A DNA stretch of 64,000 nt, from positions 32,001 to 96,000 of the IMG/VR virus record IMGVR_UViG_3300036852_000741; one strand, given 5' to 3'. Made by a program: the position numbers and the translations under genes. The notes below the pieces were generated by a model. That model was not told the origin of the DNA. It saw only the letters and a list, made by a program, of their open reading frames with translations, and made no database searches. Within the stretch, counting starts at the first letter, position 1. Each line of letters starts with the position of its first letter. Shown piece by piece: positions 9,332-64,000 of the stretch. The stretch comes from a virus.

Positions 9332-11323
9332 GTGGCACAACGCAAGGGGGGCTGGGTGACGCGGCTGCAAGAGGCCGTCGAGGAGAGGACGGGCTACACC
9401 GTCGCGGAGAAGGGGCGGCTCGACCTGCTGGAGGCGGCGGCGACGGAGGGCCGGGCGCTGCGCCGGGAACTGGACCTCATCGGCTGGAGCGTCCTCGACT
9501 ACCTCAGCGGGCAGCCCCAGGAATTGCGCTTCGAGGAGCGCAAGAAGATGGCCCAGCAGGCGCGCATGGTCTGGGCCCAGGACCCGCAGGCCGGCGCGGC
9601 GGTGGACCTCTCCAACGACTTCGTGTTCGGCCGCGGCGTGCCCAGGCCCAAGTGTCGCGACGAGGCGGTGCAGGAGGTCGTGGACGAGGCGTGGGCCGAT
9701 CCCGACAACCAGGCTGTGCTGACCTCTTACGAGGCCCAGATCGCGCTCAACACCGACCTGGAGCTTCAGAGCAACCTCTTTTTGCTGATGTTCGACGGCG
9801 GCGAGGATGGCAAGGTCAAGCTCGGGCTGCTGGATCACGACACGGTGGAGAACGCGGTGCGCGATCCGCAAAACCGCCTGCGGGTCCTCTACTACGTCGC
9901 CAAGACGCGCCACTTCGAGTGGGACTTCACCCACGATCGCCCCGCTCTGCCGGGTGCCGGCGGCAAGCCGCTGGTGTCCAAGACGATGTACTACGACCAC
10001 TGGCGCAACGTGGCCGACGCCGAGGAGGAGGAACGAGAGGAGCCGCTTCCCAAGCCGCCCAAGGAGAAGCACGCTGACGGCAAGGTGCGCCACGTGGCCG
10101 TCAACCGCACCGCGGAGATGGCCTTCGGGGTGCCGCGGATGCGGCGCACGATCCGCTGGTTCACGGCATACAACGACCTGCTCAAGGCGCGCGTGGACAT
10201 GGCGCAGGCCGCCGCCGCGTTCATCATGAAGCGCAAGGTCCAGGGGACGCCGACGCAGCTTGCCAAGCTGGCCGCCAAGGCGGTGTCGCGGAGGAGTGAC
10301 CTGGCGGAGAGCGGCACGCTGACGGGCCCCCGGCCGGCGTCGGTGCTCAGCGAGTCAGAGACCGTCGAGCACGAGCCGCTGAGCCTGGACTCGGGCGCCG
10401 CCAACGCCGCCCAGGACGCGCAGATGATCCGCGCGCAGGTGAGTGCCGCCACCCACTTCCCGCAGCATTACTTCGGCGGTGAGCCCGGCAGTTTGGCCGG
10501 GGCCACCGCCGCCGAGCTTCCGGTCATCAAGCACATCGAGGGGCGCCAGGAGGTGTGGGAGGGCGTCTTCCGCTGGTTCATCGACCGGGTGATCGAGAAG
10601 GCGGTGGACGACGGGCGCCTGGATCGCTACATCGAGGGCGAGGCGGCCGGGGGGCAGGGAGCCGAGGCGATCGGCAGCCCGAACGGCGGAGCGCCGGAGT
10701 GGGCGCCGGACCTGGGCGCACCGGCAGGCTCGCCGTATCTGGGCGAGGCCCACGAGGACCAGGCCGACGACGAGCGCTCGACCGAGCGCGACCTGTCCTA
10801 CGAGTTCTCGATGCCCAACGCGCTCAAGCGGATGATGGCCGACCTGGTGGGCGCGGTGACCAACATCGCGCGCACCTTCGACCCCAACAACACCAACGTC
10901 GAACTGAGCCGCATCCTGCTGGCGATCGTGCTGGGGGAGGGCCTGGAGGTCGAGGACCCGCAGGGCCTGGTGGAGCGCATCTTCCCCGAGGACTACGTGG
11001 ACCCGGCGGTCGCAGCGGCGCAGGCGGCAGCCCAAGGCGGCGGCCCTCCGGGCGAAGGAGAGCCGCCGACGGCCACGGGCGCCGACGGCGAGCAGCACGG
11101 GGCAGGCAACCCATACGGGGCACCCATGAACTCGCCGTACCCCGAGGAGATGGCGCAGGGGCTCAGCGAGGCGCGCTTCGGCGACCTCTCCGACGTGCTC
11201 CAGGTACGTCAGCGCGGCCGGGTCACCGAGGTCGAAAGGATGTTCAACGAGGAGGTGCGATCCGTCGTAGACGAGGCATTGGCGGGCCTGCTCGCCGGTG
11301 CGTCAACCAACGGCAAGCACTAG
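9332..11323 (+). CDS. Phage portal protein
   Basis: 663 aa; DPQAGAAVDLSNDFVFGRG, HVAVNR...FGVP, PQHYFGG...ATAAELP portal-like motifs; lies upstream of MuF. Confidence 0.85.
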   Translation: MAQRKGGWVTRLQEAVEERTGYTVAEKGRLDLLEAAATEGRALRRELDLIGWSVLDYLSGQPQELRFEERKKMAQQARMVWAQDPQAGAAVDLSNDFVFGRGVPRPKCRDEAVQEVVDEAWADPDNQAVLTSYEAQIALNTDLELQSNLFLLMFDGGEDGKVKLGLLDHDTVENAVRDPQNRLRVLYYVAKTRHFEWDFTHDRPALPGAGGKPLVSKTMYYDHWRNVADAEEEEREEPLPKPPKEKHADGKVRHVAVNRTAEMAFGVPRMRRTIRWFTAYNDLLKARVDMAQAAAAFIMKRKVQGTPTQLAKLAAKAVSRRSDLAESGTLTGPRPASVLSESETVEHEPLSLDSGAANAAQDAQMIRAQVSAATHFPQHYFGGEPGSLAGATAAELPVIKHIEGRQEVWEGVFRWFIDRVIEKAVDDGRLDRYIEGEAAGGQGAEAIGSPNGGAPEWAPDLGAPAGSPYLGEAHEDQADDERSTERDLSYEFSMPNALKRMMADLVGAVTNIARTFDPNNTNVELSRILLAIVLGEGLEVEDPQGLVERIFPEDYVDPAVAAAQAAAQGGGPPGEGEPPTATGADGEQHGAGNPYGAPMNSPYPEEMAQGLSEARFGDLSDVLQVRQRGRVTEVERMFNEEVRSVVDEALAGLLAGASTNGKH

Positions 11324-11329
11324 GAGGGC

Positions 11330-11521
11330 ATGGGAATGCTTGCGCTCTCTCGCGCCGATACCGTCTCGGTCGAGGCGCTGCTCGTGGGCCTGCTCGTCAC
11401 GGTTCTCGTGGCGGCGGTCGTGTACTTCGGAGGACGGGAGGTGGCCCCGCGGTGGGCGGGAGGCGGCGCCTTCATCGTCCTGCTCGTCGGCTGCCTGCTG
11501 ACGCTGCTCGCTGCGCTGTAG
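11330..11521 (+). CDS. Two-TM small membrane protein
   Basis: Two hydrophobic segments, AGGAGG RBS. Confidence 0.7.
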   Translation: MGMLALSRADTVSVEALLVGLLVTVLVAAVVYFGGREVAPRWAGGGAFIVLLVGCLLTLLAAL

Positions 11522-11911
11522 AGGGGAACGGGGTGTTTGAGCATGGTCTTTTTCAGCACGGAGACGCCGGGGATCGTGGGCTTCGCGGTGCACGTAGGGC
11601 CACTGGCGGTGTGCCTTGCCCTGGGCCATATCCCCACCATGGAAGCGGTTGGCGCGGCCGTAGACTCCGGGGCAGATGGCGTTCCCTCGCGAACTCGGGG
11701 TAGCTCTAGCCGCGTTGCCTAGACCACCAGGGGTGGGGACCGACGCGGTGGCGTCCTGGTATTCGGTCCCCACCCGGCCCTTTCTCGCATGTTTGGTGCG
11801 CGGGCATGACTGGACTCAGCAGGCGCAGATAGACGCACCGTCGGGCCGGCGTTTCACGGTGTACCTGTGCGCCCAGTGCGGGGTGCGCATCCAGTACGAC
11901 GAGTCGTTCTG

Positions 11912-14900
11912 ATGGCGGCGCGGCGCCCGCAGCCCGCACCACCGCCGAGCTTTGACCAGGCAGCCCAGGGGCAGGACGCCGGCTCGCTCAGTGCGCCGGT
12001 AGCCGGCCTCGCCGTCGGGGGTGTGGGCGCTGGTGCCGGAGTGGGCGCCGGCTACGTGGCGGGGGCCGTCACCGCCGCCGCGGGCGCTGCCGCGATCGCC
12101 AAGGCCACCAAGGCGATCCTCGCCGCGCTCGTGCGGTTCTTCAGGCGCAAGAACGCCGACGACCTGGTGTGGCTCGTGGGCGCCCTGCGCCAGGCCCGAG
12201 CGGCGGAGGGCGTCACCGACGACGAGCTACGCGCGATCGCCCGCGACGAAATCAAGCTGGAGCAGCAGTTTCAGAAGAAGGCGATGGCCCGCTGGGCCGC
12301 GGCGCTGCCCAGGCTCCTGGCGATCGCCGACCCGCAGGAGCGTAACTCCGCGATCGCCAAGTTCCAGGCCCTCGAACGCCACTATCTCAACCTGCGCCAG
12401 CAGGCGATGGTCACCCGCGCCGACTCCCGCATCGAGCAGCGCCTGCTCAAGGAGCTATCCCCCCGCGGCGCCTACTGGAAGCTGTCGCCCTTCGTGATGA
12501 AGTCCACCCCCGACTGCATCGCCCTCGCCGGCAAGGTGTGGCCGTGGAGCGTGATAGATGCCGTGGGCCCACCGCCCCGGCATTTTGGTTGCGCGTGCAC
12601 CCTCTACGGAGTGGACGAGGCCAAGGCCGCCGGCTGGATCACCGACGCCCAGGTCCCCACCGACGAGCACGCCGCGCTGCGCCAGGCCCGCGACCTCCTG
12701 CGCCGAGCCGAGAAGCTGGAGGAGGCCGTCGGCGAGCACTTCGACCACTGGGCGGCTTATCACGACGGTAAGACCGAGGACCCCCCCACCCGGGTTGCTG
12801 CCCTCGCGCTCGACCACTTTTTGGAGGAGGGCCACAAACCAAAAGCTACGCAGGCGGAGGAAGCGGCCTACGAGGAGCACCTCCACCCCCGAAACCGACT
12901 CGGGCGCTGGGCCGAGGTCCTCAAGTACAACCCCCACCTCCCCGGCGAGGCGCGCAACAGCCGCTACCGCGACGCCGAAGGCAAGCTCACCGGGCACATC
13001 GAGTACGGGCCGAAGTTCCTGGACCTCCCCGCCCGCCAGCAGGAGCACGTGCTCGCCCACGAGATAGGCCACGACCTGGACGACGACCTGCTGCGCGACC
13101 CGCACTCCTGGGTGTGGGACGAGTGGAACTGGGCCGACCGCGCCTTCGAGCACCTCATGGGCGGGCCGAACACCACCCCGGGCGAGCGCATCGCAGACGC
13201 CTACGCCGCCGCGTTCGTGGGCAGCGTCGAGGACGCCGTGCGCTGGCCGGCGGTGCTGCGCATCGCCCAAGAGGCCAAGGCGCGCGGGCTCCCGATCCAC
13301 GAGCGCATCGAGGCACTGCTGCCCGAGGAGCCCAACGACGAGCCCGGCGAGGTGCTGGCCGACCTGGACTGGCGCGCCGGCTACGAGGGGCGCAGGCGCT
13401 GGGAGGCGCTACCCGACGACGCCTGGGTGTGGCTGTTTCACGCCACCCGCCGTGAGGACGCCGAGGCGTTCGCGCAGCGCGGCATCGACCCGCTGGCCAA
13501 GCCGCGTTCGCTGGCGCGCGAGCGCTACGAGGCCGGCGAGCACGCCACCTTCCAGCCGGGTGCCGGCGTCGGCGGCGGCCTGTACGTCTCCCCCACCGCG
13601 CATGGCGCCAGCGGCTACGGCCGCGAGCTACTGGCGGTCAAGGTCCGCAAGCGCGACGTGATCGTGCCGCCCGAGCAGCACGGGGCGACGGTGGCGATGG
13701 CGCTGGGCGTCAGCGACGCGATGGTGGCCAGGGCGATCCCACCCGAGCACGTGCGACGCATCGAGACCGGTGGACGGGAGCTAGCGCCGGAGGCGGCAGC
13801 GGCGCTCCTGCGCGAGCCGAAGGCCGAGCCCGCCCGGCGACTGTACGGGGCGACCCCCGAGCGCCTGGCCGACTTCGCCGCGGCGCTGCACAGGCTGGAC
13901 CGGATCACCCGGGCGGACGTGGAGGCGGGGCGAGTGCCGGGCGTGGCGATGGGCGGGCTGGCCGCGGGCGTCGCGGGACGTGCGGACCTGGCGGAGGGGA
14001 CGATCACGCTCACCCCGAGCAGCTTCAACGCGGACGGCACGATCGACTCCGTGCACTTCGCCCACGAGGTCGGGCACTTCCTCGTGCACGCGGTCCTGCG
14101 TGACGGCAAGGTGCCACCCGAGCTTGAGGCGATGGCGGCGGGGCATGGTCGGGCCGAGGGGCGCTACGGCAAGATCGCCGGGGAGGGCGCCAGGCTGTTT
14201 GGGCCGGACGCCAAGCTGCCGGAGGAGTTCATCGCGGACTCCTACGCCGACCTGATCCACGGCCGAGCGGAGTTCTCCTACGTGCCGGGCCTGGACGGAC
14301 CCGATGATCCCGAGTCCCGCGAGGCGGCGCTGCGCGAGTTCGACGCCAGGCCGCAGACGCGGTGGCTGCGCTGGCTGGCGGGCGTGGCCGGGGAGCACGG
14401 CCTGCCCGACCGGGGCCTGTGGCGGTTCGTGCGCGACGAGGACGGCATCTACCGACTCGTGGCGCGTGAACTCCAGGAGGCCGAGTACGACGACACGCTG
14501 CACCCAAGGGGCCGCCTTGAGACGGTCGGGCATGAACTGCCACGGCTGGAGTGGGTGGACCCGCCGCCGCTCAAGCCCAGAACCGGCGAGCGCAAGGCGG
14601 GCGGTTTCACCGCGACCGGCCAGACGACTACCAAGCTCGGCGACCTGATCGAGGGCCTGCTTGTGGGCCAGCTTGGACTGCGGTCGCTGCTGCCGGAGGG
14701 CGGGCGCCAAAGCCCGCTGGACGCGGGGATTGGCGAGTGGGGCTTCGAGGTCAAGGTGGTCACGACGGCGGCGTCCGAACTGAAGATCAAGCCCAAGAAG
14801 CACGAGGTGGCGAGCAAGGTCGCCTACGCGCAGGAGAACGGGCTGACGGCGGCGTCGATGATCGTGGTGGTGGACGTGGACGCCAAGAGGGCGTGGGCCT

Positions 14901-14989
14901 ATTGGCGTGAGGGGATCGGCGCCTACCGACTCACGAGGGAGCCCCCGTGGCATTTCATGGGGTCGCTGGAGCTACCGGCGGCGGCGTGA
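11912..14989 (+). CDS. MuF-like minor head protein fused to zincin peptidase, ART-like, second zincin and PD-(D/E)xK nuclease domains
   Basis: MuF motif PDCIALAGKVW...PPRHFGCAC; HEIGH and HEVGH; LFHAT...GLYVS...GYG...IPPEHV; PLDAG...GFEVK. Confidence 0.8.
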   Translation: MAARRPQPAPPPSFDQAAQGQDAGSLSAPVAGLAVGGVGAGAGVGAGYVAGAVTAAAGAAAIAKATKAILAALVRFFRRKNADDLVWLVGALRQARAAEGVTDDELRAIARDEIKLEQQFQKKAMARWAAALPRLLAIADPQERNSAIAKFQALERHYLNLRQQAMVTRADSRIEQRLLKELSPRGAYWKLSPFVMKSTPDCIALAGKVWPWSVIDAVGPPPRHFGCACTLYGVDEAKAAGWITDAQVPTDEHAALRQARDLLRRAEKLEEAVGEHFDHWAAYHDGKTEDPPTRVAALALDHFLEEGHKPKATQAEEAAYEEHLHPRNRLGRWAEVLKYNPHLPGEARNSRYRDAEGKLTGHIEYGPKFLDLPARQQEHVLAHEIGHDLDDDLLRDPHSWVWDEWNWADRAFEHLMGGPNTTPGERIADAYAAAFVGSVEDAVRWPAVLRIAQEAKARGLPIHERIEALLPEEPNDEPGEVLADLDWRAGYEGRRRWEALPDDAWVWLFHATRREDAEAFAQRGIDPLAKPRSLARERYEAGEHATFQPGAGVGGGLYVSPTAHGASGYGRELLAVKVRKRDVIVPPEQHGATVAMALGVSDAMVARAIPPEHVRRIETGGRELAPEAAAALLREPKAEPARRLYGATPERLADFAAALHRLDRITRADVEAGRVPGVAMGGLAAGVAGRADLAEGTITLTPSSFNADGTIDSVHFAHEVGHFLVHAVLRDGKVPPELEAMAAGHGRAEGRYGKIAGEGARLFGPDAKLPEEFIADSYADLIHGRAEFSYVPGLDGPDDPESREAALREFDARPQTRWLRWLAGVAGEHGLPDRGLWRFVRDEDGIYRLVARELQEAEYDDTLHPRGRLETVGHELPRLEWVDPPPLKPRTGERKAGGFTATGQTTTKLGDLIEGLLVGQLGLRSLLPEGGRQSPLDAGIGEWGFEVKVVTTAASELKIKPKKHEVASKVAYAQENGLTAASMIVVVDVDAKRAWAYWREGIGAYRLTREPPWHFMGSLELPAAA

Positions 14990-18472: not shown

Positions 18473-18780
18473 CGGAGCCGCGCAATGAGCCGCCAGCTTC
18501 CGCTCCGCGGGAAACTCAGAAGCTGGCCGATCCGGACGTGGCCTTCATCCTTGAGCGACTCAGGCAATCGGGCAGGGAGAAGGACGAGCCGGTGCTGGCG
18601 CTTGCGGCGGCGCTCGTCGTGGCCGAGGCCGAGGTCGAGCGGCTGCGCGAGGCGCTGCGCCGGATCGCCGAGGAGCCGTGCCCGCATCCCGGACCAACCG
18701 TCCCGATGTGCCCCTACTGCGCTGAGGATGCGCGCGAGGCACTGGCGCTCGGTATGCGGACGACCGGAGGGCCGACGTGA
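18469..18780 (+). CDS. Cassette mini-gene 9 (Ead/Ea22-like coiled coil)
   Basis: AEAEVERLREALRRIA; ends ALGMRTTGGPT. Confidence 0.7.
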   Translation: MTEPRNEPPASAPRETQKLADPDVAFILERLRQSGREKDEPVLALAAALVVAEAEVERLREALRRIAEEPCPHPGPTVPMCPYCAEDAREALALGMRTTGGPT

Positions 18781-20732
18781 CGTTCGTGTTGTGGATCAGC
18801 GAGGACGATGGCATCGACCTTGGGCCAACGCCGGAACTGCTCGCCGCCTTCCGTGAGATGGCGCAGGCGGCCGACGGCGACGAGTACGGGCAACTCTGGT
18901 ACGTCCCGCAGACCGCCGACGAGACGATGCCGGCTGACTACATCGCGGCGGCGTCCGCCCAGGCGGCGGACCTGCTGGTGGCGGCCGGCGACAGGCTGGG
19001 CGGGCACGCGCGCTGGGTCCTGGAGCGCCTGGCGGCGGCGGGTGCCCTGGAGGAGGCGTTCAGCCCGGACCAGCCGCGCTACCCGAAGGGCCACCCGAAG
19101 GCCGGGCAGTGGCGTCCGAAGATCGCCGCCGGCCGGGGCCGGATCGCCCCCGGGCATCTGAAGAACGACCTGTTCTACCTGCGCTACTCGATCAAGGCCG
19201 CCCAGGAGGCGCCGCAGGCGCAGGGCGCGGTGGTGGGCACCCGTCGCCTGGCGGAAATCGGCCACGAGGTCGAGAAGATCGCGCTGCGCTACTCGACGCG
19301 CCGCGACTACGAGAAGCGTCTGGCGGACATCCGCGCGGAGCGCAGGCGCATCTCTGATGCGCACTGGGAGCGTTGGGAGGGGTGGGCCCATACCGCCACC
19401 GGGGAGGAGTGGAAGGCCGCCTCGATGGACGAGGAGCGCTTTCTGTCCGCGCGCGACAAGGAGCGCCTGGCGGAGATAGTGACCGAGGAACTGAAGCTCG
19501 CGCGCGACCGCGATCGCGCCGACAAGGACGCGATCCTGGGGGTGCTCGCCGAGATGCGCAAAATGGGCGGCAAGGTGCGCCAGGGGTCAGTGAACATCGA
19601 CCCGGAGGACCCCGACGGCTACTTCTTCATCGCGCTCAAGAGCGGCGAGCAGCGGGAGGTCACCCACGAGACGACGATTCAGGCGATAGAGGAGTCGCGC
19701 ACCAAGGTGCAGGCCGCCTACCGCAACGTGGCCAAGCTGTTGCCGGCGGACTGGCTGGCGGATACGTCGGCAAAGGGCGAGGTGCACACGCTGTTGTCCA
19801 CCAAGCGGGCGTGGCATCGCCGGGAGACGCCGAGCGTGCTGCGCGACCCGTGGGAGGCGGCCCGCCACAAGTTCACCGAGCTACAGAGCGAGGGCCACAA
19901 GTTCCTGGGCCTGCACAAGCAGTACCCGTTCGCGCTGTTCGCCGACAGGGACACCGGCGAGGTCTTCGCGCTGCGCCAGGACGGCACTGTGGTCACCGAG
20001 GCGTGGGATCGCGTCAGGCTCGTGAGCTTCCCGATGGCCGGCGAGGGCACCCTGGAGGACATCTTGGTGCCGGCGCACAGTCTGCCGGCCGCCCCGCTCA
20101 AGCCGGGCGCGAAGGACTACTACGCCGAGATGCGCGCGGAGGCTCTGCGGCTGATGCGCGAGGAGGGCTACGCCTGGGTGGGGATGCGCGGCAAGTGGGG
20201 AACGCTGCGCTCGCCGCAGGGCGAGGAGGTGAGCCTGGACTGGGCGGGCAAGCCGCTGACCTCGCAGGTGGGCGCGGGCGGCACCAAGGCCGCCCTGCCG
20301 CCGCTGCTGCCCGGTGTGATCCCCGACCCACCGCCACCGAAGGTCGAGGACTCCACCATCCGGGTGGACCCTCGGGACGAGCACAAGGTCCTCCACGAGC
20401 TAGCCCACCGTATGGAGGTCGTGGTGGGCGAGGAGAACCAGGCCGGCTACCGTCCGCTGCACTATGCCGCCCTGCTGTTCTTGCAGCAGCGCACCCAGGG
20501 TGAGAGCCTGGTGAAACTCATCGACCTGTACCCCGGCTACGCCTACGAGGACGACGAGGTGACCCGCCCGGACAAGTTTGTGGACGCCTACGTTGGCAAG
20601 GACTATGGCGGCCGGGCCACCGAGGTCATCACAATGGGCCTCGAAATGCTGTTCTATCCGCGCTACAAGCGTGATCTGGCCGACGACCCGGAGATGAAGC
20701 GATGGGTGCTGGGACTGCTGGCAGCGGCGTGA
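18777..20732 (+). CDS. Putative internal head protein with C-terminal zincin metallopeptidase
   Basis: LEEAFSPDQPRYPKGHPKAGQW tag; VLHELAHRME...YVGKDY...TEVITMGLE. Confidence 0.75.
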   Translation: MTFVLWISEDDGIDLGPTPELLAAFREMAQAADGDEYGQLWYVPQTADETMPADYIAAASAQAADLLVAAGDRLGGHARWVLERLAAAGALEEAFSPDQPRYPKGHPKAGQWRPKIAAGRGRIAPGHLKNDLFYLRYSIKAAQEAPQAQGAVVGTRRLAEIGHEVEKIALRYSTRRDYEKRLADIRAERRRISDAHWERWEGWAHTATGEEWKAASMDEERFLSARDKERLAEIVTEELKLARDRDRADKDAILGVLAEMRKMGGKVRQGSVNIDPEDPDGYFFIALKSGEQREVTHETTIQAIEESRTKVQAAYRNVAKLLPADWLADTSAKGEVHTLLSTKRAWHRRETPSVLRDPWEAARHKFTELQSEGHKFLGLHKQYPFALFADRDTGEVFALRQDGTVVTEAWDRVRLVSFPMAGEGTLEDILVPAHSLPAAPLKPGAKDYYAEMRAEALRLMREEGYAWVGMRGKWGTLRSPQGEEVSLDWAGKPLTSQVGAGGTKAALPPLLPGVIPDPPPPKVEDSTIRVDPRDEHKVLHELAHRMEVVVGEENQAGYRPLHYAALLFLQQRTQGESLVKLIDLYPGYAYEDDEVTRPDKFVDAYVGKDYGGRATEVITMGLEMLFYPRYKRDLADDPEMKRWVLGLLAAA

Positions 20733-28373: not shown

Positions 28374-31304
28374 GTGACCCAGCCTGGCGCAGAGGAGCTT
28401 GTCGTGGGACGGGTCGATCCGTTCGTCGCTTTGCGGGGGCGGATCGAGGAGGCCAGCAACGGGGGCAAGGATGCTGGCGAGCGGGCGCTGGCGCTCAAGC
28501 GGGTGCGCTACGGCCTGCTGGCGGCACTGAGGGACGTGGAGGGCCGCATCGAGGAGGCCGAGGGCGACCGCGAGCGCGAGGTGCGTCGCGAGGTGCTGCG
28601 CCGGGTGCGTGAGAACGCCGACCTGCGCGAGCAACTGGAGCGCCGGGGGCTGGTGGCGCCGGAGCGCTTGGACGCGATGGGGCTGGTCTCCCATGACGCG
28701 CTCGATGAGGCCGGGGTCGAGGGGCGCCTGGAGGAGTTCGCGGCCGGCGCCCTGGCGAAGCTCGACAACATCGGGCAGGGCTCTGGCGTGTTGGGCAAGT
28801 GGCTGGAGAAACTGCACCCGCGCGATCGCGGGGGCCAGTTTGCGAAGAAGCCCGGCTCGGGGGTGATGACGGCTCACGTGGGCCCGGACGCCGGTGGCAG
28901 GGGGACGGTGAAGCGTACGGTCAAGGCACCGGCCGCCAAGCGGCCCGAGCGGGTGTTCAAGACGCAGAAGGTCATGCCCGAGGAGCTTGTGGCTCAGCAG
29001 AAGACGCCCGAGCAGAAGGACGTGCCGGAGGCCGAGCGTGTCGGGTTCGAGGGCCTGGCCCCGGGTGCTCGCCCGGCCGGGATGAGCGAGCGGCAGTGGC
29101 GCCAGGAGCGTGCTCGTACCCCGGAGGGGGCTCGTCGGACCAAGGGGCCGGTGCAGGCGCCCGAGGAGATTGAGAAGGCCAAGGCCAAGGACCGCGAGAA
29201 GCGCCAGCGGGGAATGGCCAAGCGTGTCGAGCGCGAGGTGGCCAAGGGCGTCAAGGGCGGGGCCGCCCAGCACTTCAATCCGGCCGGCAAGGTCAGCCAG
29301 AAGGCGCTGTTGGACTACGTGCGCAACACGCTGACCACGCCGTCAACGGCCGATGCGCACTCCGAGGTGCGCGGCGAGCAGCGCTTCTATCACCCCGACC
29401 GCAAGCAGCTTCACGACACGATTATCGACACGTTGCTGCGGCGCCCCAACGAGGACGGCACCATCTCGGCGTCCAACGAGTACCTGCCCTCCCAGGAGAC
29501 GCCGGAGGTCCTGTTCATGGGCGGCGGCTATGCGGCGGGCAAGTCGAGCGCGGAGAAGTTGCTGCGGGCCCGCAACGAGGTGCCGGCGGACTCGCTGAAG
29601 ATCGACCCCGACCAGATCAAGTCGATGCTGCCCGAGTTCGTGGCGACGGCCGGCCACGACCCGGAGGCCAACCTGCGCGTCTACGAGGAGGCGTGGGACA
29701 TCGCCCAGGAGCTTCAGCGTCAGGCCAAGGAGCGCAAGCTCAACGTGGTGGTGGACGGCATCACCAACACCTCGGCCGACGAGGTGTTCGGTCGGGTGCA
29801 GAGCTTCAAGGACGCCGGCTACGGCAACGCGCGGATCGCCTACGTGGATGTGCCCACCGACGTGGCGCTCACCCGGGCCGCCGACCGGATGGCCAAGGCG
29901 ATCGAGCGTGGCGACGGGCCGAACATGCGCCACATCCCCGAGCCGATCATGCGCGCTGTGCACCGCGACGTGGCGGCGACGATTCCGGCAGTGATGGGCG
30001 ACCCCCGCCGCGAGGGCCTGGGGGTGCATGTGGACGTGTACGACGGCCAGTCGGGGGCGCTGCCGATCGCCTCGATCGCCCCCGACGCCGCCGAGCCGAC
30101 GATCCACAACGACCCGGCGTGGGCGCGGCTGCGCGAGAAGGCCGACGAGAAGATCGCCGGGGTGGACGCGGCCAAGAGCGCCACCGACCCGTGGGCTGCC
30201 GGGCGCCTGGCGGAGAACCACGAGGACTTCTTCAACGTGACGCCGCAGACGACGCGGGTGTCGCTGGACAAGCTGCGCCCGTCCAAGCAGCCCGAGAGCC
30301 AGCCCAAGTCGGTGGACAACGCCGAGCGGTTCATGCGTCAGGCGGCGGCCGGCGAGAAGGGCAAGCGCGACCCGATCAGGGTGCGCGACGATGGCGATGG
30401 GACCTACACCGTGCTCGACGGCAACGCCACCTACGGGGCGGCGGTGCGCAACGACTGGAAGGACCTCCCCGTCGAGGTGGTCAACGCCAAGCCCGGCGGC
30501 GAGACCACGGGCGGAGCGGCGGTGCGGCCCGGCGATGACGAGGCCCGAGCCGTGCACCAGCGGATCGTGGAGTCTGTCGGCGATGTGCCCGCGGAGGCGC
30601 CTCCTCAGCCGGCCAGCACCGAGGAGGAGTTGTATGCGCTGGCGCCTGCCGCCCAGGAGGGCTTCGTTGACATCCTGGACCGCGGTGTGGGCGTCTCAGC
30701 GTCGTTGGGGGCGCGTACTCACCAGATCACGAACGAGGACGACTTCAAGGAGGCGGTGGCCGCGGTCGAGGCCGACCCCGACAGCCCGCACATCCTCCTG
30801 GCGCCGTTGAAGGGCACCGAGCGTGCGCGCGAGAAGGTCGAGGGCAAGTACAAGGGCGACTGGGGCAAGCTCTCCGATGTTGTGCGCGGGACGGTCGTGG
30901 TGCCGGACATCGAGACGCTTGAACAGGCGATGGACGCGGTACGCCGGGAGGCGGAGGCCAACGGCTGGAAGGTCAGCGCCCTGGAGAACCGGATGGTCAA
31001 CATCCAGGGCGAGGGCAAGCGTGCGCCGGGGCCGACCTCCTCGGGCTACACGGACTTCAACATCCGCCTGGAGGCGCCCAACGGCATCCAGGCTGAGCTT
31101 CAGTTCAACACCTCGCACATGGTGATCGCCAAGGAGGGCACGCCAGGCGGCCACAAGCTGTTTGAGGAGGAGCGCACGATTGTGGATCGGGCGAACGCGA
31201 GGGGACTCCCGCTCACCGCCGCGGAGCGCGCCAGGGTGTTCGAGCTTCGCAAGCAGCAGACGGCGATCTACACCCAGGCATGGGAGGCCGGCATCCCATC
31301 GTAG
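28374..31304 (+). CDS. Polyvalent protein: HPR tag, Zeta-toxin-like P-loop kinase, ParB-like and RelA/SpoT-like nucleotidyltransferase domains
   Basis: LFMGGGYAAGKS, IDPDQIK, NVVVDG; DPIRV...VLDGN; LKGTERAREKV, DVVR, GYTDFN, AELQFNT, GHKLFEEER. Confidence 0.85.
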   Translation: MTQPGAEELVVGRVDPFVALRGRIEEASNGGKDAGERALALKRVRYGLLAALRDVEGRIEEAEGDREREVRREVLRRVRENADLREQLERRGLVAPERLDAMGLVSHDALDEAGVEGRLEEFAAGALAKLDNIGQGSGVLGKWLEKLHPRDRGGQFAKKPGSGVMTAHVGPDAGGRGTVKRTVKAPAAKRPERVFKTQKVMPEELVAQQKTPEQKDVPEAERVGFEGLAPGARPAGMSERQWRQERARTPEGARRTKGPVQAPEEIEKAKAKDREKRQRGMAKRVEREVAKGVKGGAAQHFNPAGKVSQKALLDYVRNTLTTPSTADAHSEVRGEQRFYHPDRKQLHDTIIDTLLRRPNEDGTISASNEYLPSQETPEVLFMGGGYAAGKSSAEKLLRARNEVPADSLKIDPDQIKSMLPEFVATAGHDPEANLRVYEEAWDIAQELQRQAKERKLNVVVDGITNTSADEVFGRVQSFKDAGYGNARIAYVDVPTDVALTRAADRMAKAIERGDGPNMRHIPEPIMRAVHRDVAATIPAVMGDPRREGLGVHVDVYDGQSGALPIASIAPDAAEPTIHNDPAWARLREKADEKIAGVDAAKSATDPWAAGRLAENHEDFFNVTPQTTRVSLDKLRPSKQPESQPKSVDNAERFMRQAAAGEKGKRDPIRVRDDGDGTYTVLDGNATYGAAVRNDWKDLPVEVVNAKPGGETTGGAAVRPGDDEARAVHQRIVESVGDVPAEAPPQPASTEEELYALAPAAQEGFVDILDRGVGVSASLGARTHQITNEDDFKEAVAAVEADPDSPHILLAPLKGTERAREKVEGKYKGDWGKLSDVVRGTVVVPDIETLEQAMDAVRREAEANGWKVSALENRMVNIQGEGKRAPGPTSSGYTDFNIRLEAPNGIQAELQFNTSHMVIAKEGTPGGHKLFEEERTIVDRANARGLPLTAAERARVFELRKQQTAIYTQAWEAGIPS

Positions 31305-36110: not shown

Positions 36111-36150
36111 ATGTAGCCGGCGTTGGTGCCGGCCGTACCATGGGGCCGTG
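36111..36150 (+). promoter_or_regulatory. Class-II leaderless promoter
   Basis: ATGTAG-N19-TACCAT-N6-GTG. Confidence 0.55.
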
Positions 36151-38898: not shown

Positions 38899-39452
38899 TG
38901 GCCGAGCTACCACCCGGGGTCATCCGTGAGGCGCGGCGCCTCCAGGAGGCGGTCCGCGAGCGCCGTGAGGCGCACGCTCGCCATGACGCCGAGGCGTACG
39001 CCCGCGCGACCGCGCGCGAGGAGGCCCTGGCCGGCTGGTTGTTGGAGGCGTTGGAGGAGGCGGCGGTCGCTCATCGGGCCGGCGACTTCGAGGGGCTCCA
39101 TCCGCGCGACCGGCTCGGCCGGTTCATGGAGAAGCTGGATTCCGAGCTTCATGCGGCGCTCTTGCGCGCCAGCCGTGTGCGCACCGGGCGGCGCCTGGCA
39201 CGCGATGACCGGCGCTTGGAGCGCCGGGCGCTGCGCGCCCAAAGGCATGGCCGGGAGTTGGCGTCGTTGGGTGGGCTGCTTCCTCACAGCCAGGTGCCGG
39301 GTCCGGGCGCCCTGGGGAGCCGCGCGCTGCGTGCCAGCGCTGAGCAGCCGGTGCCGTTGACGCGGGGGGCGAAGGTCAAGGCGCTGGTGGCGTCGGGTCT
39401 GGCAGCCAGCGCCGACGAAGCTCGCGAGCTTCTGCTGGACCTGGGCGAGTAG
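38898..39452 (+). CDS. HPR-tagged putative head protein
   Basis: RLQEAV...LEEAA...FEGLHPRDRLGRF. Confidence 0.7.
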   Translation: MAELPPGVIREARRLQEAVRERREAHARHDAEAYARATAREEALAGWLLEALEEAAVAHRAGDFEGLHPRDRLGRFMEKLDSELHAALLRASRVRTGRRLARDDRRLERRALRAQRHGRELASLGGLLPHSQVPGPGALGSRALRASAEQPVPLTRGAKVKALVASGLAASADEARELLLDLGE

Positions 39453-44000: not shown

Positions 44001-44011
44001 GCCCTGTCGGC

Positions 44012-44053
44012 ATGTAGCGCCGTCCCGGGCCGCCCGTAAGCTGAGGGGCGATG
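44012..44053 (+). promoter_or_regulatory. Class-II leaderless promoter
   Basis: ATGTAG-N19-TAAGCT-N8-ATG. Confidence 0.55.
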
Positions 44054-59149: not shown

Positions 59150-59397
59150 TTCTTCGGGGTGCGGTCTCGGTCGCCGTAGAGTGGCCCGTGGCGCCGTAGC
59201 GCTGCTGCCGCGGCGTGGATGGCGTCGCGGACTTCGATGACGCTGGCGTAGGCCAGCACCTTGATCGGGCCGAGCCGTCCGGGACGGCGGCCGACGGCTT
59301 CTGCCAGCGCATTCAGGGCAGCTTCGGCGGCGGCCAGGGCTCGTACCGCCGCGCGGTAGAGGTGGACGACCTCGCCTCGTCCGCCGGACGCCATCAC
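59146..59397 (-). CDS. Small helical protein; the only credible minus-strand gene
   Basis: Fills the gap; divergent -10 TAGACT (59405-59410) and operator GGGATCACAACGTGAGCCC (59415-59433). Confidence 0.55.
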   Translation of the reverse strand: MMASGGRGEVVHLYRAAVRALAAAEAALNALAEAVGRRPGRLGPIKVLAYASVIEVRDAIHAAAAALRRHGPLYGDRDRTPKN

Positions 59398-59414
59398 CCA
59401 CCCGAGTCTAGGAC

Positions 59415-59507
59415 GGGATCACAACGTGAGCCCAGCGGGGGTTGGATGTGCTCACGATGTGCGCTATACTCCTGGTGCGACGCAGTGTCGCGATCCCGAC
59501 CAAGGAG
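59415..59507. promoter_or_regulatory. Divergent promoter pair with two operators
   Basis: Operators at 59415-59433 and 59448-59466; -35 TTGGAT, 17 bp, -10 TATACT; hairpin GCGAC-GCAGT-GTCGC; CCCGACCAAGGAG. Confidence 0.85.
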
Positions 59508-59511
59508 AGGC

Positions 59512-61056: not shown

Positions 61057-61460
61057 GCGACATCGAGGTCACCTTCGACTGGGACGAGGGGGACCGTAGC
61101 GTCGGGCTATTTCCGGGCTGGGGCGAGGAGACCGGCGCCGTGGTGCGCATGGGCGACCTCACTGTCGGCTTCGTGTTTATCGTGGCGGAGACCAAGCCGG
61201 TGGCGGAGTGGGTACTCGATGACGTGTGGGTACGGCACGCTCAGCGTCAGACCATGCTGGCCGACGCTCCGCCGATCGCTCGACACGGCGCCGAGAGAAC
61301 GCTGCTGGGCGAGCTACCCGACGTGTGCGCGGCGGTAGCCAGGGAGTGGGAGCGCATCGGCGCCGAGCGTGAGGCGGCGGCCGAGGCTGAGGCCGAGGCG
61401 TGGGCGGAGCAGGAGCGCTGGCTGCGAGAGGTCGAGGCCGAGGAGCGCGAGCAAGCCTAG
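61053..61460 (+). CDS. Hypothetical protein
   Basis: AAGGAGG RBS, ATGA coupling. Confidence 0.7.
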   Translation: MSDIEVTFDWDEGDRSVGLFPGWGEETGAVVRMGDLTVGFVFIVAETKPVAEWVLDDVWVRHAQRQTMLADAPPIARHGAERTLLGELPDVCAAVAREWERIGAEREAAAEAEAEAWAEQERWLREVEAEEREQA

Positions 61461-61502
61461 AAGTGGTGTAGCGGAGTCCGGGCGCGCCGGTAGCGTCCGA
61501 TC

Positions 61503-61580
61503 GGCTCCCGCTCGTGCCGCCTCTACCTCCCGTGCGGGCGGGAGCACCCACGTGTATGCCTTTCGCCATGAAGTGGGCTG
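61503..61580 (+). ncRNA. Candidate small RNA
   Basis: Class-II promoter GTGTAG-N19-TAGCGT just upstream; 14-bp stem 61504-61517/61532-61545; C-rich loop; second stem CCCAC/GTGGG. Confidence 0.35.
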
Positions 61581-61587
61581 AACTCTG

Positions 61588-61630
61588 ATGTAGGGCGCGC
61601 CCAGGGCTGGGCTTACCATCCGGCTCAATG
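61588..61630 (+). promoter_or_regulatory. Class-II leaderless promoter of the capsid operon
   Basis: ATGTAG-N20-TACCAT-N8-ATG. Confidence 0.55.
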
Positions 61631-62899
61631 ACTGCCACCGCGACAGCGGACGCGCCAGCCGAAGTGCTGGAGCTTCACGAAGGCGCGTCTGCCTCACCGA
61701 CCGGCATCCAGGACGACGGGCGCGTCCTGGTCCACGTCATCCGGCCCTGCGTTGGCCGGGGACGCGGACGCCATCTTTACACCGCCGAGATGCTGAGCGA
61801 GAACGCCCAGAAGTTCGTCGGCTGGCCGATGTATGTGGACCACCTCTCCCCCGAGGCCCGTCGCGCGGCCGGCGGCCTGCCGCGCTCCCTGCGCGATGTG
61901 GGCGGAGTGATCGAGGAGTCCTGGTGGGACGAGACCGTTCCTGCCGACCCCGCGCGCGGCTACGGCGCGGGAGCCATTGTCGCCCATGCGCGTCCGTTCG
62001 GTCTGGCCAAGAAGCTCATCGAGCACGACCCCCGGCTGGTCGAGGCGTCCATCAGTGCCAATGCGACCGGCGTCAAGCCGACGACTCACAACGGTCAGCG
62101 GGTGTGGCTGGTCGAGGGCATCGAGGACACCGGCAGCGTGGACTGGGTGACGCAGGCTGGCGCGGGCGGTCGGGTCGTGTCACTCATGGAGTCGTTGTAC
62201 GACAGCGACTCTGAGGACCTGCTCTCCGACATGGGGGACGAGGAGTTCCTCGCATACCTGGACCGCGAGCGCCCGCACCTACGCGAGGCGCTCCAGGCCG
62301 ACGACAACGCCGATGAAGGAGGCGACATGGGAGAGGTCACTCCCGAAGTGCTCCAGGAGGCTCTCCGGTCGGAGGCCACCCAGGAGGTCATCCGCAGTCT
62401 CGTCAACGATGGAATCGAGGAGCGCCTTCCGGCGCTTGTCGAGGCGGCGGTGGCCAAGGAGCGCGACCTCATCCGCGCCGAGGCTGAGGCCGCGTCTGAT
62501 CGCAAGGTCGATCTGCGGGACTTCCGCGAGGAGGCCCACCGAATCATCGCGGAGGCCAAGCTCCCGGACTCCTGGAAGGCGAGCCTGCGCTCTCGCTTCG
62601 ACCTCACCGAGGGCGGGCAGCCCACCCCGGCGCTGGACGTGATCGACCAGGTGGACGACGACGGCAACGTCACGAAGTCCGCCCGGCAGGTCCTGCGTGA
62701 GGCGGTCGCCGAGGCGGTCGCCGAGCAGCGCAAGCTCCTGATGGAGGCCAGGCCCACCCGCGTGACGGGGCAGGGCCCGGCGAAGCCCACTGGTGGCGAG
62801 CAGGAAGGCGAGGCCGACAAGAAGTACGACGGCACGCTGACCGCCTCGCTGCTTCAGGAGGCCGGCATCGACCCCGAGACGGCCTGGGCCAAGGTCTGA
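61628..62899 (+). CDS. Capsid maturation protease fused to scaffold
   Basis: YTAEML...MYVDH...RSLRD...SISA...SVDWVTQAGAGGRV..LMES followed by acidic coiled coil; upstream of capsid. Confidence 0.8.
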   Translation: MTATATADAPAEVLELHEGASASPTGIQDDGRVLVHVIRPCVGRGRGRHLYTAEMLSENAQKFVGWPMYVDHLSPEARRAAGGLPRSLRDVGGVIEESWWDETVPADPARGYGAGAIVAHARPFGLAKKLIEHDPRLVEASISANATGVKPTTHNGQRVWLVEGIEDTGSVDWVTQAGAGGRVVSLMESLYDSDSEDLLSDMGDEEFLAYLDRERPHLREALQADDNADEGGDMGEVTPEVLQEALRSEATQEVIRSLVNDGIEERLPALVEAAVAKERDLIRAEAEAASDRKVDLRDFREEAHRIIAEAKLPDSWKASLRSRFDLTEGGQPTPALDVIDQVDDDGNVTKSARQVLREAVAEAVAEQRKLLMEARPTRVTGQGPAKPTGGEQEGEADKKYDGTLTASLLQEAGIDPETAWAKV

Positions 62900-62917
62900 T
62901 CGAAAGGAGCTAACGAG

Positions 62918-63295
62918 ATGCCTTACGAACGTCCAGGCCAGGGCTACTACGCCACCGCCACCAAGGCCCTCACCCACGGGGACCCGTGCACCGAAGATGG
63001 AGTGGTCGGTGTCGCGATCAAGCAGAAGGCTCCGGCGTGGGATGCCGGCCTTGCGGATCAGGACGCCATCGCCATCGGCGAGGCGTTCCACATCCGCACC
63101 AAGGGCATTCACCAGGTGGCGTTCGTGACCGGCGCCGCCAAGGGTGACCCCATCTACATCGTCGCGGCCGACAACACGCTGACCGAGACGGCCAGCGGCA
63201 ACATCAAGTTCGGCCGCGTGGTCGAAATCGAGGGCCAGCGTGGCACGCCCACCGGCTTTATGCGGGTGGACCTCGATCTGAAGGACGGCTTCTGA
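62918..63295 (+). CDS. DUF2190-family capsid decoration/cement protein
   Basis: GDP...GVVGVA...KGDPIY...FGRVV; position between scaffold and capsid. Confidence 0.8.
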   Translation: MPYERPGQGYYATATKALTHGDPCTEDGVVGVAIKQKAPAWDAGLADQDAIAIGEAFHIRTKGIHQVAFVTGAAKGDPIYIVAADNTLTETASGNIKFGRVVEIEGQRGTPTGFMRVDLDLKDGF

Positions 63296-63392
63296 TCGCG
63301 ATGGGCCGCTCGTACCTGTTCTCACTGACGGGCCTGCGCTGTGCAGGCGGCGGCTGCCCCGCCGGACCCACCTTCAAGGAGGTGAACCCCTG

Positions 63393-64000
63393 ATGTACGG
63401 ACCCTACGGGGAGTTCGGGAAGCCCATTCGCCTCCTGGAGGCGTACAAGGAATGGCGTGACCTGCGCCTGGAGGAGGCCGACTCCAAGGCCGACTTCCCG
63501 TCGTTCCTCATGGGACCGGTGACGCAGAGCCTGTGGCATGGCTACTCGCGGGCGCAGTCGCAGTACCGCCGCTACACCCGCGTCGAGAACGTCCAGGACT
63601 TCCGCGAGCGTCGTCTGCGCGGCCTGAACGGGCTCAGCGGGATCGGCTACGTCGGCGACCACGGCGAGTACCCGGGCATGAAGCGGACCGAGCGCCCGAC
63701 CGCCACTCTGGTGATCGACACCTACGGCGGCGTGTACTCGATCACGCGGCAAGCGATCCGCAACGACGACACGAATGAACTGCTCAACCGCAACCCCGCC
63801 GACATGGGCTACGCGGCCGGGCTGTTCGTCCTGGAGACGATCGTCGCGCTGATCGAGTCCAACCCGACGGCGCCCGACGGCGCCGCGATGTACTCGACCG
63901 GCCGCGGCAACCAGACGACCTCTGCGCTTGCCGAGGACTCGCTGGCCACCGCCGTCGGTGCGATGGAGGACCAGCTTGACGACGACGGCCGGCGCATCCA
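63393..64000 (+). CDS. Major capsid protein (Mu gpT-like), 3'-truncated
   Basis: AAGGAGG RBS; hand translation ...LEEADSKADFP...VQDFR...TYGGVYSITRQAIRNDD...PADMGYAA; open to window end. Confidence 0.88.
   Translation, partial: MYGPYGEFGKPIRLLEAYKEWRDLRLEEADSKADFPSFLMGPVTQSLWHGYSRAQSQYRRYTRVENVQDFRERRLRGLNGLSGIGYVGDHGEYPGMKRTERPTATLVIDTYGGVYSITRQAIRNDDTNELLNRNPADMGYAAGLFVLETIVALIESNPTAPDGAAMYSTGRGNQTTSALAEDSLATAVGAMEDQLDDDGRRI

What the first reader, a model, noticed from the sequence alone, without database searches (positions are those of the whole stretch)
9332..64000. Shared HPR tag plus L-x-E-A sites: a candidate protease-processed virion cargo-loading system
Seen: the tag recurs seven times in five otherwise unrelated proteins. 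MuF has YEEHLHPRNRLGRW (about 12869) and a truncated YDDTLHPRGR (about 14486). The 18777 protein has the variant FSPDQPRYPKGHPKAGQW (about 19059). The 28374 protein has WLEKLHPRDRGGQF (about 28800). The 36148 protein has FERLHPRAAKGRTGGGQF (about 36298) and WEARLHPRDREGRF (about 37909). The 38898 protein has FEGLHPRDRLGRF (about 39087). Most follow an L-[EQR]-E-A motif, which also occurs at the portal N-terminus (RLQEAV), through the scaffold (LREA, LQEA, LMEA) and in the capsid N-terminus (LLEA, RLEEAD). Known: T4 gp21 cleaves head proteins after (L/I)-x-E, and T4 internal proteins use a short capsid-targeting sequence. Inference: these proteins are polyproteins addressed to the prohead, cut after Glu by the 61628 protease, and ejected as separate effector domains that start with the HPR tag.
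Basis: partly seen in the sequence, partly recalled or inferred. Interest (0 to 1): 0.8.

Follow-up and report, generated by a model that had tools for sequence, protein, structure and literature searches.

The report
Shared tag on phage cargo proteins
A short peptide (aromatic, acidic, H-P-R, then G-R-F/W) starts each enzyme module of several large proteins among this 105-kb phage's head genes and in over 1,000 protein clusters elsewhere; here it follows a likely head-protease cut site, which suggests an undescribed label for capsid-carried, injected proteins.

Summary
All seven copies lie in frame at the stated coordinates. A profile of the tag finds six of them (E 4e-14 to 7e-6) and nothing else real in the 105-kb genome. 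The seventh, a variant, is conserved in an orthologue.

The tag is widespread and has no Pfam family. 1,161 protein clusters match, with up to 20 copies in a 7,334-aa protein. Every context I examined was a phage or prophage head module, next to portal or MuF. The tagged modules are effector-type: ADP-ribosyltransferase, Zeta toxin, PG-binding, poly(A) polymerase, GNAT, HicA, zincin.

The 61628 protein has an N-terminal T4 gp21-fold protease domain (Z 11.2) fused to a scaffold. The scaffold carries 7 L-x-E-A motifs where 0.5 are expected.

In 11 genomes with this protease, 52 of 75 tags lie 6-9 residues after [LIVM]-x-E-[AGSN]; background is 9%. Two records checked for this protease family lack it, and in the one studied in detail the tag sits at the true N-termini of separate genes with no such site (0 of 7). 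A cut after Glu would recreate that geometry.

Processing and packaging remain inferred. Which step the tag serves (loading, retention or ejection) is open. Another window of this scan noted the same tag on this genome.

The parts
9332..11323 (+). Portal protein. It has L-x-E-A sites at aa 12-15 and 32-35.
   Evidence: phrog_10963 portal, E 2.6e-33. The second site is kept in all four clade portals and the first in three of four. L-x-E-A 4 observed against 0.67 expected.
11867..14989 (+). Polyvalent protein directly after the portal gene. It has a MuF-like C-terminal signature (aa ~225-245), two HExxH zincin motifs (aa 398 and 733), one full tag and one truncated tag.
   Evidence: Sequence; MuF signature aligns with a Pfam-confirmed MuF domain, pairwise E 0.002; no Pfam or PHROG family; HExxH scan.
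12869..12910 (+). HPR tag copy 1. A-E-E-A lies 7 residues before the His.
   Evidence: Profile hit E 9.0e-13.
14486..14515 (+). HPR tag copy 2. It lacks the G-R-F/W end. L-Q-E-A lies 7 residues before the His.
   Evidence: Profile hit E 7.2e-6; spacing.
18777..20732 (+). Protein with an N-terminal pro-region, a variant tag at 19059-19112 (Gln in place of His, preceded by L-E-E-A) and a C-terminal HExxH zincin domain.
   Evidence: phrog_33618 and others of unknown function on aa 527-641. The variant and its L-x-E-A are conserved in the G003 orthologue. Not found by the profile.
28374..31304 (+). Effector protein with three G-R-[IL]-E-E sites in the first 125 aa, the tag at 28800-28841, then a Zeta-toxin kinase domain (aa 369-540).
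   Evidence: Pfam Zeta_toxin E 9.1e-23; tag profile hit E 2.8e-13.
36148..38898 (+). Protein with a near-N-terminal tag (36298-36351), three PG_binding_1 repeats, an internal Glu/Ala-rich spacer and a second tag (37909-37950).
   Evidence: Pfam PG_binding_1 E 3.4e-44; tag hits E 2.9e-8 and 3.7e-14. The homologue P0144 starts 12 residues before the aligned Met, so the first tag is probably N-terminal.
38898..39452 (+). Small 184-aa protein: a helical pro-region with three L-x-E-A sites, then the tag (39087-39125), then about 95 aa of unknown function.
   Evidence: Tag hit E 9.0e-12; L-x-E-A 3 against 0.58 expected; no family.
61628..62899 (+). Prohead protease-scaffold fusion. The N-terminal domain (aa 9-176) has the T4 gp21 fold. 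The C-terminal half is long helices with seven L-x-E-A sites.
   Evidence: AF2 model, N-domain pLDDT about 90. VIA-align Z 11.2, rmsd 3.2, 139 residues against 5jbl_A; next unrelated row Z 6.7; VZV protease Z 5.4. 284 homologues, mostly on 100-135 kb contigs. Conserved sites and His72/Ser141.
62918..63295 (+). Capsid cement or decoration protein.
   Evidence: Pfam Phage_cement_2 E 8.8e-9.
63393..64000 (+). Major capsid protein, which runs on to genome 96442 (349 aa). Two conserved L-x-E-A sites (aa 14-17 and 26-29) lie before the capsid fold begins.
   Evidence: Pfam Phage_capsid_4 E 1.1e-35 on aa 32-345. Both sites are kept in the capsids of G001-G003.

Best explanation
The HPR peptide has the consensus aromatic-x-[DE]-x-x-H-P-R-[DG]-x-x-G-[RKQ]-[FW] and is usually followed by a Gly/Pro-rich linker. 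I read it as a conserved tag that marks the N-terminus of each module of capsid-carried effector ('polyvalent') proteins.

In this phage and its relatives, the modules are made as pro-proteins or polyproteins. They enter the prohead and are cut after Glu at [LIVM]-x-E|[AS] by the gp21-fold protease-scaffold protein (61628). The same enzyme trims the scaffold, the capsid N-terminus and the portal N-terminus. Each product then begins 6-8 residues before the His of the tag.

The tag itself then serves a step that all cargo shares. The candidates are docking or retention inside the head, or leading the protein out through the tail.

Shown: the motif, its distribution, the protease fold, the site coupling and the head-module context.
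Inferred: cleavage, packaging, and which step the tag serves.
For: Motif and distribution:
- Six profile hits in the genome, all in five head-region proteins.
- 34 of 41 DNA-pattern hits in IMG/VR lie in long ORFs with the same context.
- Related 73-134 kb phages carry 8-15 copies each; one 3,918-aa frame holds eight.
- 1,161 clusters at E <= 0.001, with up to 20 copies per protein and a median spacing of 284 aa.

Head context:
- A Portal_Mu-tag-ART fusion.
- MuF 2-3 kb upstream of the tagged gene in ten 11-59 kb records with an N-terminal tag on a large protein.
- In a Streptosporangium prophage the tagged gene lies between a portal-MuF fusion and the S78 protease plus capsid.
- Tagged genes flank an SPP1-type portal in G004.
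- Streptomyces phage Gilgamesh gp48 follows the portal-MuF fusion directly.

Cargo: ART, Zeta toxin, PG-binding, poly(A) polymerase plus HD, HicA, GNAT, RelA_SpoT and MuF.

Protease: gp21 fold at Z 11.2. Conserved L-x-E-A sites in the scaffold, capsid and portal.

Coupling:
- 25 of 37 tags plus 27 of 38 tags follow [LIVM]-x-E-[AGSN], nearly all at 6-8 residues. Background is 9%.
- These come from 11 genomes that all carry the protease-scaffold family.
- G004 lacks this protease. There 0 of 7 tags have the site, and the tags sit at about residue 9 of separate genes.
- N-terminal tags at residues 8-30 are common elsewhere.
Against: - There is no proteomic or biochemical evidence that any tagged protein is in a virion or is cut.
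- The tag occurs with four different portal types, with different capsids and with different proteases. A single conserved head receptor is therefore not evident.
- The Glu/Ala-rich pro-regions could be the real prohead address, as in T4 and the phiKZ-like phages.
- Sequence-level comparison of the protease with T4 gp21 is not significant (hhalign). No Pfam protease family hits. The catalytic residues are only inferred.
- L-x-E-A is about 2.3-fold over expectation in other proteins too.
- Three of the seven window copies lack a canonical site close by.
Confidence: 0.6

Rival explanations
1. The proteins are packaged and processed as described, but the address to the prohead is the Glu/Ala-rich pro-region, which is removed as in T4 and the phiKZ-like phages. 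The HPR tag acts only later: it binds packaged DNA, leads the protein through the tail, or binds a host factor after injection.
For: - The five window proteins share the 60-80 residue helical stretch before the tag, and it begins with [KR]-L-[QE]-E-A-V, as the portal N-terminus does.
- In T4 and SPN3US the removed N-terminal propeptides are the suggested targeting elements (PMC9026906; PMC10052503).
- The tag is basic.
- The tag is independent of the head-protein family.
Against: In G004, Gilgamesh gp48 and many metagenomic proteins the tag is at or near the first residues with no pro-region. In those proteins the tag is the only feature that otherwise unrelated cargo shares.
Confidence: 0.25
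2. The junctions are cut by the zincin (HExxH) metallopeptidase domains embedded in the polyvalent proteins, as Iyer and colleagues proposed for polyvalent proteins, and not by the prohead protease. The tag would be part of their recognition site.
For: - HExxH follows the tag by 143-158 residues in four modules of the 3,918-aa polyprotein of G001.
- It also occurs in the 11867 and 18777 proteins.
- PMC5512222 predicts such processing.
Against: - Several large N-terminally tagged proteins (the L005-class contigs) have no HExxH.
- G004 has a zincin but no E-A junctions.
- The same L-x-E-A sites are conserved in scaffold, capsid and portal, which are substrates of a prohead protease.
Confidence: 0.1
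3. The tagged proteins are not virion cargo. The tag is a short linear motif that acts in the infected cell, for example by binding a host protein or as a cleavage site itself. Its place among head genes would reflect only late co-expression.
For: There is no direct evidence of packaging. All genuine carriers found come from high-GC DNA, so a host-lineage-specific partner is possible.
Against: - Physical fusions of tagged modules to a portal and to MuF.
- Constant position between portal/MuF and protease/capsid.
- The cargo repertoire matches known encapsidated effectors.
Confidence: 0.05

Closest known systems
T4 internal proteins with their capsid-targeting sequence, cut by the gp21 prohead protease
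   Same: Short N-terminal peptide shared by unrelated cargo proteins. A protease of the same fold. The cut comes after Glu in a [LI]-x-E context, often before Ala. Scaffold and capsid are trimmed by the same enzyme. Cargo is injected with the DNA (PMC9026906; fold match).
   Different: The T4 sequence lies before the cut and is removed. Here the tag lies 6-8 residues after the predicted cut and would stay on the product. There is no sequence similarity. Here the protease is fused to the scaffold, the capsid is Mu-like (Phage_capsid_4) and the cargo are giant multi-module proteins.
Prohead-protease processing of ejection and inner-body proteins in phiKZ-like giant phages (SPN3US gp245)
   Same: Many head-internal proteins are cut after Glu in a three-residue motif. 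Long propeptides are cut at several sites. The portal and capsid are also cut (PMC10052503).
   Different: No shared post-cleavage tag is reported there. The P3 preference differs (Ala/Ser/Gly there, Leu/Val/Ile here). The phage lineage and genome size differ.
Polyvalent proteins of phages and conjugative elements (Iyer et al. 2017, PMC5512222)
   Same: Giant multidomain proteins that combine ART, zincin peptidase, methylase-helicase, PG-active and RNA-modifying domains, predicted to be delivered with the DNA. LPD1 and ART-PolyVal domains occur in tagged proteins.
   Different: That paper's text does not mention an H-P-R motif, and no Pfam model covers it. It proposes zincin autoprocessing rather than prohead-protease sites. 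All tagged examples examined here are in phage head modules; none is in a conjugative element.
MuF polymorphic toxins (Jamet et al. 2017, PMC5576092)
   Same: Head-module proteins with an N-terminal MuF domain and a variable C-terminal toxin. Some tagged proteins carry MuF.
   Different: Most tagged proteins have no MuF domain. The paper's text contains none of the words I searched for (linker, conserved motif, cleavage).
Phage P1 Dar antirestriction proteins (DarB and others) packed in the head
   Same: A large methylase-helicase protein is carried in the capsid. The actinobacterial protein at L121 has an Eco57I-type methylase and an SNF2 helicase behind an N-terminal tag.
   Different: I did not examine P1 proteins for the tag. 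The packaging dependencies in P1 are known from genetics, from my own knowledge.
Encapsulin cargo-loading peptides
   Same: A short conserved peptide on a flexible Gly/Pro linker directs unrelated enzymes into an HK97-fold shell. This is a resemblance from my own knowledge.
   Different: Those peptides are usually C-terminal. There is no protease step and no ejection. Not tested here.

Membership tests
T4 gp21-type prohead protease (herpesvirus-assemblin fold; MEROPS S77) | Assemblin-like fold of the catalytic domain | tested here: met
   Model residues 9-176 against 5jbl_A: Z 11.2, rmsd 3.2, 139 of 165 residues aligned. Next unrelated row Z 6.7. VZV protease Z 5.4.
T4 gp21-type prohead protease (herpesvirus-assemblin fold; MEROPS S77) | Significant sequence match to the family (Pfam Peptidase_S77 or S78, or T4 gp21 itself) | tested here: not met
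   No Pfam family at E <= 0.1. No PDB sequence hit to gp21. hhalign against T4 gp21 gives E 0.23. The fold alone cannot separate S77 from S78.
T4 gp21-type prohead protease (herpesvirus-assemblin fold; MEROPS S77) | Catalytic Ser and His | tested here: inconclusive
   Ser141 is invariant and His72 is 97% conserved in 32 homologues, in contexts like those of T4 His85 and Ser140. No residue-level superposition was available.
T4 gp21-type prohead protease (herpesvirus-assemblin fold; MEROPS S77) | Cleavage after Glu in [LI]-x-E | not testable with these tools
   Indirect evidence only: conserved L-x-E-A sites in scaffold, capsid and portal, and before the tags.
T4-type capsid-targeting sequence | N-terminal peptide that ends at the protease site and is removed | tested here: not met
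   The tag lies 6-8 residues downstream of the predicted cut. It may work like a targeting sequence but is not one of that kind.
Polyvalent proteins (Iyer et al. 2017) | Several unrelated effector or enzymatic domains in one polypeptide of a phage or mobile element, often with a zincin peptidase | tested here: met
   Zeta toxin, PG_binding and HExxH domains in the window proteins. ART, PolyA_pol, HD, GNAT, LPD1 and ART-PolyVal in tagged relatives.
Phage Mu F / SPP1 gp7 (PF04233), for the 11867 protein | Match to the Phage_Mu_F domain | tested here: inconclusive
   No Pfam hit. Only the C-terminal W-P...G-P-P...G-C-x-C signature aligns with a confirmed MuF domain (pairwise E 0.002). The position right after the portal gene fits.
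Virion cargo (encapsidated, ejected protein) | Presence in purified virions and delivery to the cell | not testable with these tools
   Gene context and fusions only.

The most novel reading that the evidence does not exclude
The HPR peptide is a portable, lineage-spanning cargo signal that works with HK97-, SPP1-, Mu- and gp21-type heads. It would define the injected-effector repertoire of a large group of phages from high-GC DNA: more than 1,000 protein clusters. It would also mean that polyproteins of up to 7,334 aa with 20 tags are factories for up to 20 separately released effectors. The junction sequence in front of the tag would co-vary with the specificity of each lineage's prohead protease.
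Probability: 0.35. Interest if true: 0.85.

Novelty: new variant of a known kind. Interest (0 to 1): 0.72.

Why it matters
If the tag is the handle by which these phages load or eject proteins, a simple sequence search could list their injected effectors: toxin-like kinases, ADP-ribosyltransferases, RNA-modifying enzymes and anti-restriction enzymes.

It would explain why some phages encode proteins of several thousand residues among their head genes. It would give a short peptide with which to test loading of reporter proteins into capsids of cultured actinophages.

The coupling of tag and cut site also gives a way to read prohead-protease specificity from genomes alone.

Tried and rejected
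- tblastn of whole tagged proteins or 41-47 residue tag regions against 50,697 cultured phage records gave nothing. Such short queries cannot reach significance in that database.
- Portal-based search of IMG/VR found no close relative.
- Pfam on ten tag-centred segments at E <= 10 gave no family. NCBIfam gave no useful hit.
- The DNA-pattern scan of bacterial genomes returned over 120 loci. Almost all were out-of-frame matches in high-GC DNA. Only three were genuine.
- Foldseek with the whole protease-scaffold model found nothing. The search that does not depend on Foldseek found gp21.
- The profile of the protease family against PDB sequences, and hhalign against T4 gp21, were not significant.
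- The ESM Atlas search on the 38898 protein was uninformative.
- Literature searches for the motif string, for polyvalent or MuF papers mentioning it, and for cluster BE phage descriptions found no prior description.
- The weak profile hit at 42979-43020 is an HNH-like ORF and I rejected it.
- No protease-scaffold homologue carries the tag.
One protein exceeded its length limit. The neighbourhoods of the largest multi-tag proteins therefore could not be read.
- The second structure prediction was not used, because no allowed input could test tag-receptor binding.


Full report
**What the window is**

The window is bases 32001-96000 of a single 105,351-bp record. The record is 70% G+C. IMG/VR classes it as a provirus, about 85% complete.

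It is a tailed phage with a contractile tail. It has a sheath gene, a Mu-like major capsid protein (Phage_capsid_4, E 1.1e-35), a cement protein and a portal at 9332-11323 (phrog_10963).

Portal and capsid lie 52 kb apart on the same strand. The tagged proteins lie between them.

**The observation**

All seven peptides are in frame at the stated coordinates.

I built a 34-position profile from 50 copies (A2) and ran it over the whole genome in six frames. It returns six of the seven at E 3.7e-14 to 7.2e-6. Nothing else credible appears. The one weak extra hit is an HNH-like ORF.

The 18777 variant has Gln for His and an eight-residue insert before G-Q-W. The profile does not find it. It is conserved, together with its preceding L-x-E-A, in the orthologue of a related phage.

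Outside the tag region the five proteins are unrelated:
- The 28374 protein has a Zeta-toxin kinase domain.
- The 36148 protein has three PG_binding_1 repeats.
- The 11867 and 18777 proteins have HExxH zincin motifs.

They do share the 60-80 residue Glu/Ala-rich stretch in front of the tag. It begins with [KR]-L-[QE]-E-A-V, as the portal N-terminus does.

**The tag elsewhere**

A degenerate DNA pattern for the core of the tag hit 36 IMG/VR loci. Of the 41 hits, 34 lie in long ORFs with the same flanks: aromatic, acidic, then L-H-P-R-D-R-x-G-[RQ]-[FW].

The profile finds 8-15 copies in each of four 73-134 kb phage records. Eight of them lie in one 3,918-aa frame.

Against 1.84 billion cluster representatives it finds 1,161 proteins at E <= 0.001 and 195 at E <= 1e-10. 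One 7,334-aa protein has up to 20 copies. Median spacing between copies is 284 residues.

No Pfam model covers the tag. I found no description of it in the searchable literature. That library lacks most subscription journals, so this is not proof of novelty.

**Context is the head module**

Every context I could read is a phage or prophage head module:
- A Portal_Mu domain fused to the tag and an ADP-ribosyltransferase.
- A separate MuF gene 2-3 kb upstream of the giant tagged gene in ten 11-59 kb records.
- In a Streptosporangium genome, the order is portal-MuF fusion, then a tagged 2,340-aa protein, then an S78 prohead protease, then an HK97 capsid.
- Tagged genes on both sides of an SPP1-type portal in the 73-kb record G004.
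- In cultured Streptomyces phage Gilgamesh, the 4,624-aa 'hypothetical protein' gp48 directly after the portal-MuF fusion. Its tag is at residues 32-45.

In bacterial genomes the pattern scan gave almost only out-of-frame noise. The three genuine hits are N-terminal tags on 2,340-4,712 aa proteins.

The domains carried by 49 tagged proteins are effector-like. They include ADPrib_exo_Tox, ART-PolyVal, Zeta_toxin, PG_binding, PolyA_pol with HD, HicA, GNAT, RelA_SpoT and MuF. These are polyvalent proteins in the sense of PMC5512222.

**The protease**

The 61628 protein has 284 homologues, mostly on 100-135 kb contigs and without Pfam domains.

The AlphaFold model built on 32 of them has a confident beta-rich N-terminal domain and a long-helix C-terminal half. 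Foldseek with the whole model found nothing.

The search that does not lean on Foldseek puts the T4 gp21 protease first: Z 11.2, rmsd 3.2, 139 residues, model residues 9-176. The next unrelated row is at Z 6.7. A herpesvirus protease scores Z 5.4.

Sequence-level comparison is not significant. Ser141 is invariant and His72 is 97% conserved, in contexts that resemble T4 Ser140 and His85. I take these as the likely catalytic pair, by inference only.

The C-terminal half carries seven L-x-E-A against 0.51 expected. Several of these sites are nearly invariant in the family.

**The cut site**

The capsid N-termini of four clade members keep two sites, [IL]-x-E-A-Y and L-x-E-A-[DT]. Both lie before the capsid fold begins.

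The portals keep L-L-E-A at about residue 33 in all four. They keep R-L-Q-E-A at about residue 12 in three.

This is what one expects of a protease that cuts after Glu, as T4 gp21 and SPN3US gp245 do (PMC9026906; PMC10052503).

Genome-wide, L-x-E-A is 55 observed against 18.4 expected. Proteins outside the head set are also about 2.3-fold over expectation. The raw count is therefore weak evidence by itself. Position and conservation carry the argument.

**Coupling of site and tag**

In the four clade genomes first studied, 25 of 37 tags have [LIVM]-x-E-[AGSN] within 16 residues upstream. In 21 of these the distance from the residue after Glu to the His is 6-8 residues. Only 9% of random 16-residue windows in the same ORFs contain the site.

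Seven more records that carry the protease-scaffold family gave 27 of 38, all at 6-9 residues. Most of the exceptions are tags close to the protein's N-terminus.

Three more distant records with this family had no tag hits.

G004 and G014 lack this protease and capsid family. In G004, 0 of 7 tags have the site. The tags sit at about residue 9 of separate genes that begin M-x-x-W.

Native N-terminal tags with the His at residues 8-30 are common among the 150 best representatives.

A cut at E|A in the clade would put the His at residue 7-9 of the product. That is the same geometry as the native N-termini elsewhere. I regard this as the strongest argument that the junctions are processed and that the tag is an N-terminal feature of each mature module.

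**Which protease**

The embedded zincin domains are the alternative. They follow the tag by about 150 residues in several modules of G001.

Three points argue against them. Several large N-terminally tagged proteins have no HExxH. G004 has a zincin but no E-A junction. The same site is conserved in scaffold, capsid and portal. I therefore favour the prohead protease.

**What the tag does**

This is not settled. The tag occurs with Mu-type, HK97-type, SPP1-type and this clade's own portals, and with S78 and gp21-fold proteases. A receptor defined by one head-protein family is therefore unlikely.

What all carriers must share is loading into the head, staying there, and leaving through the tail. 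The tag is basic and is followed by residues enriched in Gly, Pro, Ser and Thr (0.37 against 0.26 overall).

I put about 0.6 on the overall model: head cargo, prohead-protease processing, and the tag as a cargo handle. Within that model I am roughly even between loading or retention and an ejection or post-ejection role.

**Comparison and novelty**

The logic is that of the T4 internal proteins and of the processed ejection proteins of phiKZ-like phages. The carriers are polyvalent proteins.

Four things are new here:
- The tag itself.
- Its position after the cut rather than before it.
- Its multiplicity within giant polyproteins.
- Its spread across head lineages.

I class the finding as a new variant of a known kind.

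Another window of this scan noted the same tag family on this genome (e1-6008885). I treated that note as a repeat, not as independent support.

Noticed in passing
window 46263-56180 (+) and 56346-57983 (+): A 3,305-aa ORF with 20% Gly and 18% Ala. It is made of tandem short units (G-G...K-H-P-A...K...G-G) and has a CBM_4_9 domain at aa 2121-2259. The same repeat fills the 545-aa protein that follows. It may be a fibre or surface protein.
   Followed up: partly
window 42966-43163 (+), inside ORF 42188-44017: A 65-aa HNH-endonuclease-like ORF lies out of frame within the long ORF whose N-terminus is an N6_N4 DNA methylase (Pfam E 3e-12). Coding-type GC3 supports only parts of the long ORF. The gene may be interrupted or mis-called.
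   Followed up: no
P0122 and P0123 (one NCBI contig of 409,570 bp): Two neighbouring giant proteins of 5,313 and 7,334 aa carry 15-20 tag copies each. Here the tag has its own conserved junction (F-S-G-W-D-E before K-H-P-R-G-E-H-G-R-W), not L-x-E-A.
   Followed up: partly
L176:11673-20265 (Streptomyces phage Gilgamesh gp48, MN234216 31978-45852): A cultured phage carries a 4,624-aa 'hypothetical protein' with the tag at residues 32-45, directly after its portal-MuF fusion gene. This makes it a practical system for experiments.
   Followed up: partly
L169:1331-2983: In a Streptosporangium prophage the S78 prohead protease is fused to a 2',5'-RNA-ligase/LigT phosphoesterase domain.
   Followed up: no
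window 12695-12937, 37792-37968 and 38919-39152: The 60-80 residues before the tag are similar among the 11867, 36148 and 38898 proteins. They start with [KR]-L-[QE]-E-A-V, as the portal N-terminus does. If both flanking sites are cut, this would be an excised spacer peptide.
   Followed up: partly
L121:2-7303 (-), actinobacterial genome G030: An N-terminal tag on a protein with an Eco57I-type methylase and an SNF2 helicase, reminiscent of phage P1 DarB. The full open frame is 4,582 aa.
   Followed up: partly
window 59215-61056 (+): A 613-aa protein just upstream of the protease-scaffold gene matches phrog_2319 (unknown function, E 2.2e-52). Its role in the head module is unknown.
   Followed up: no
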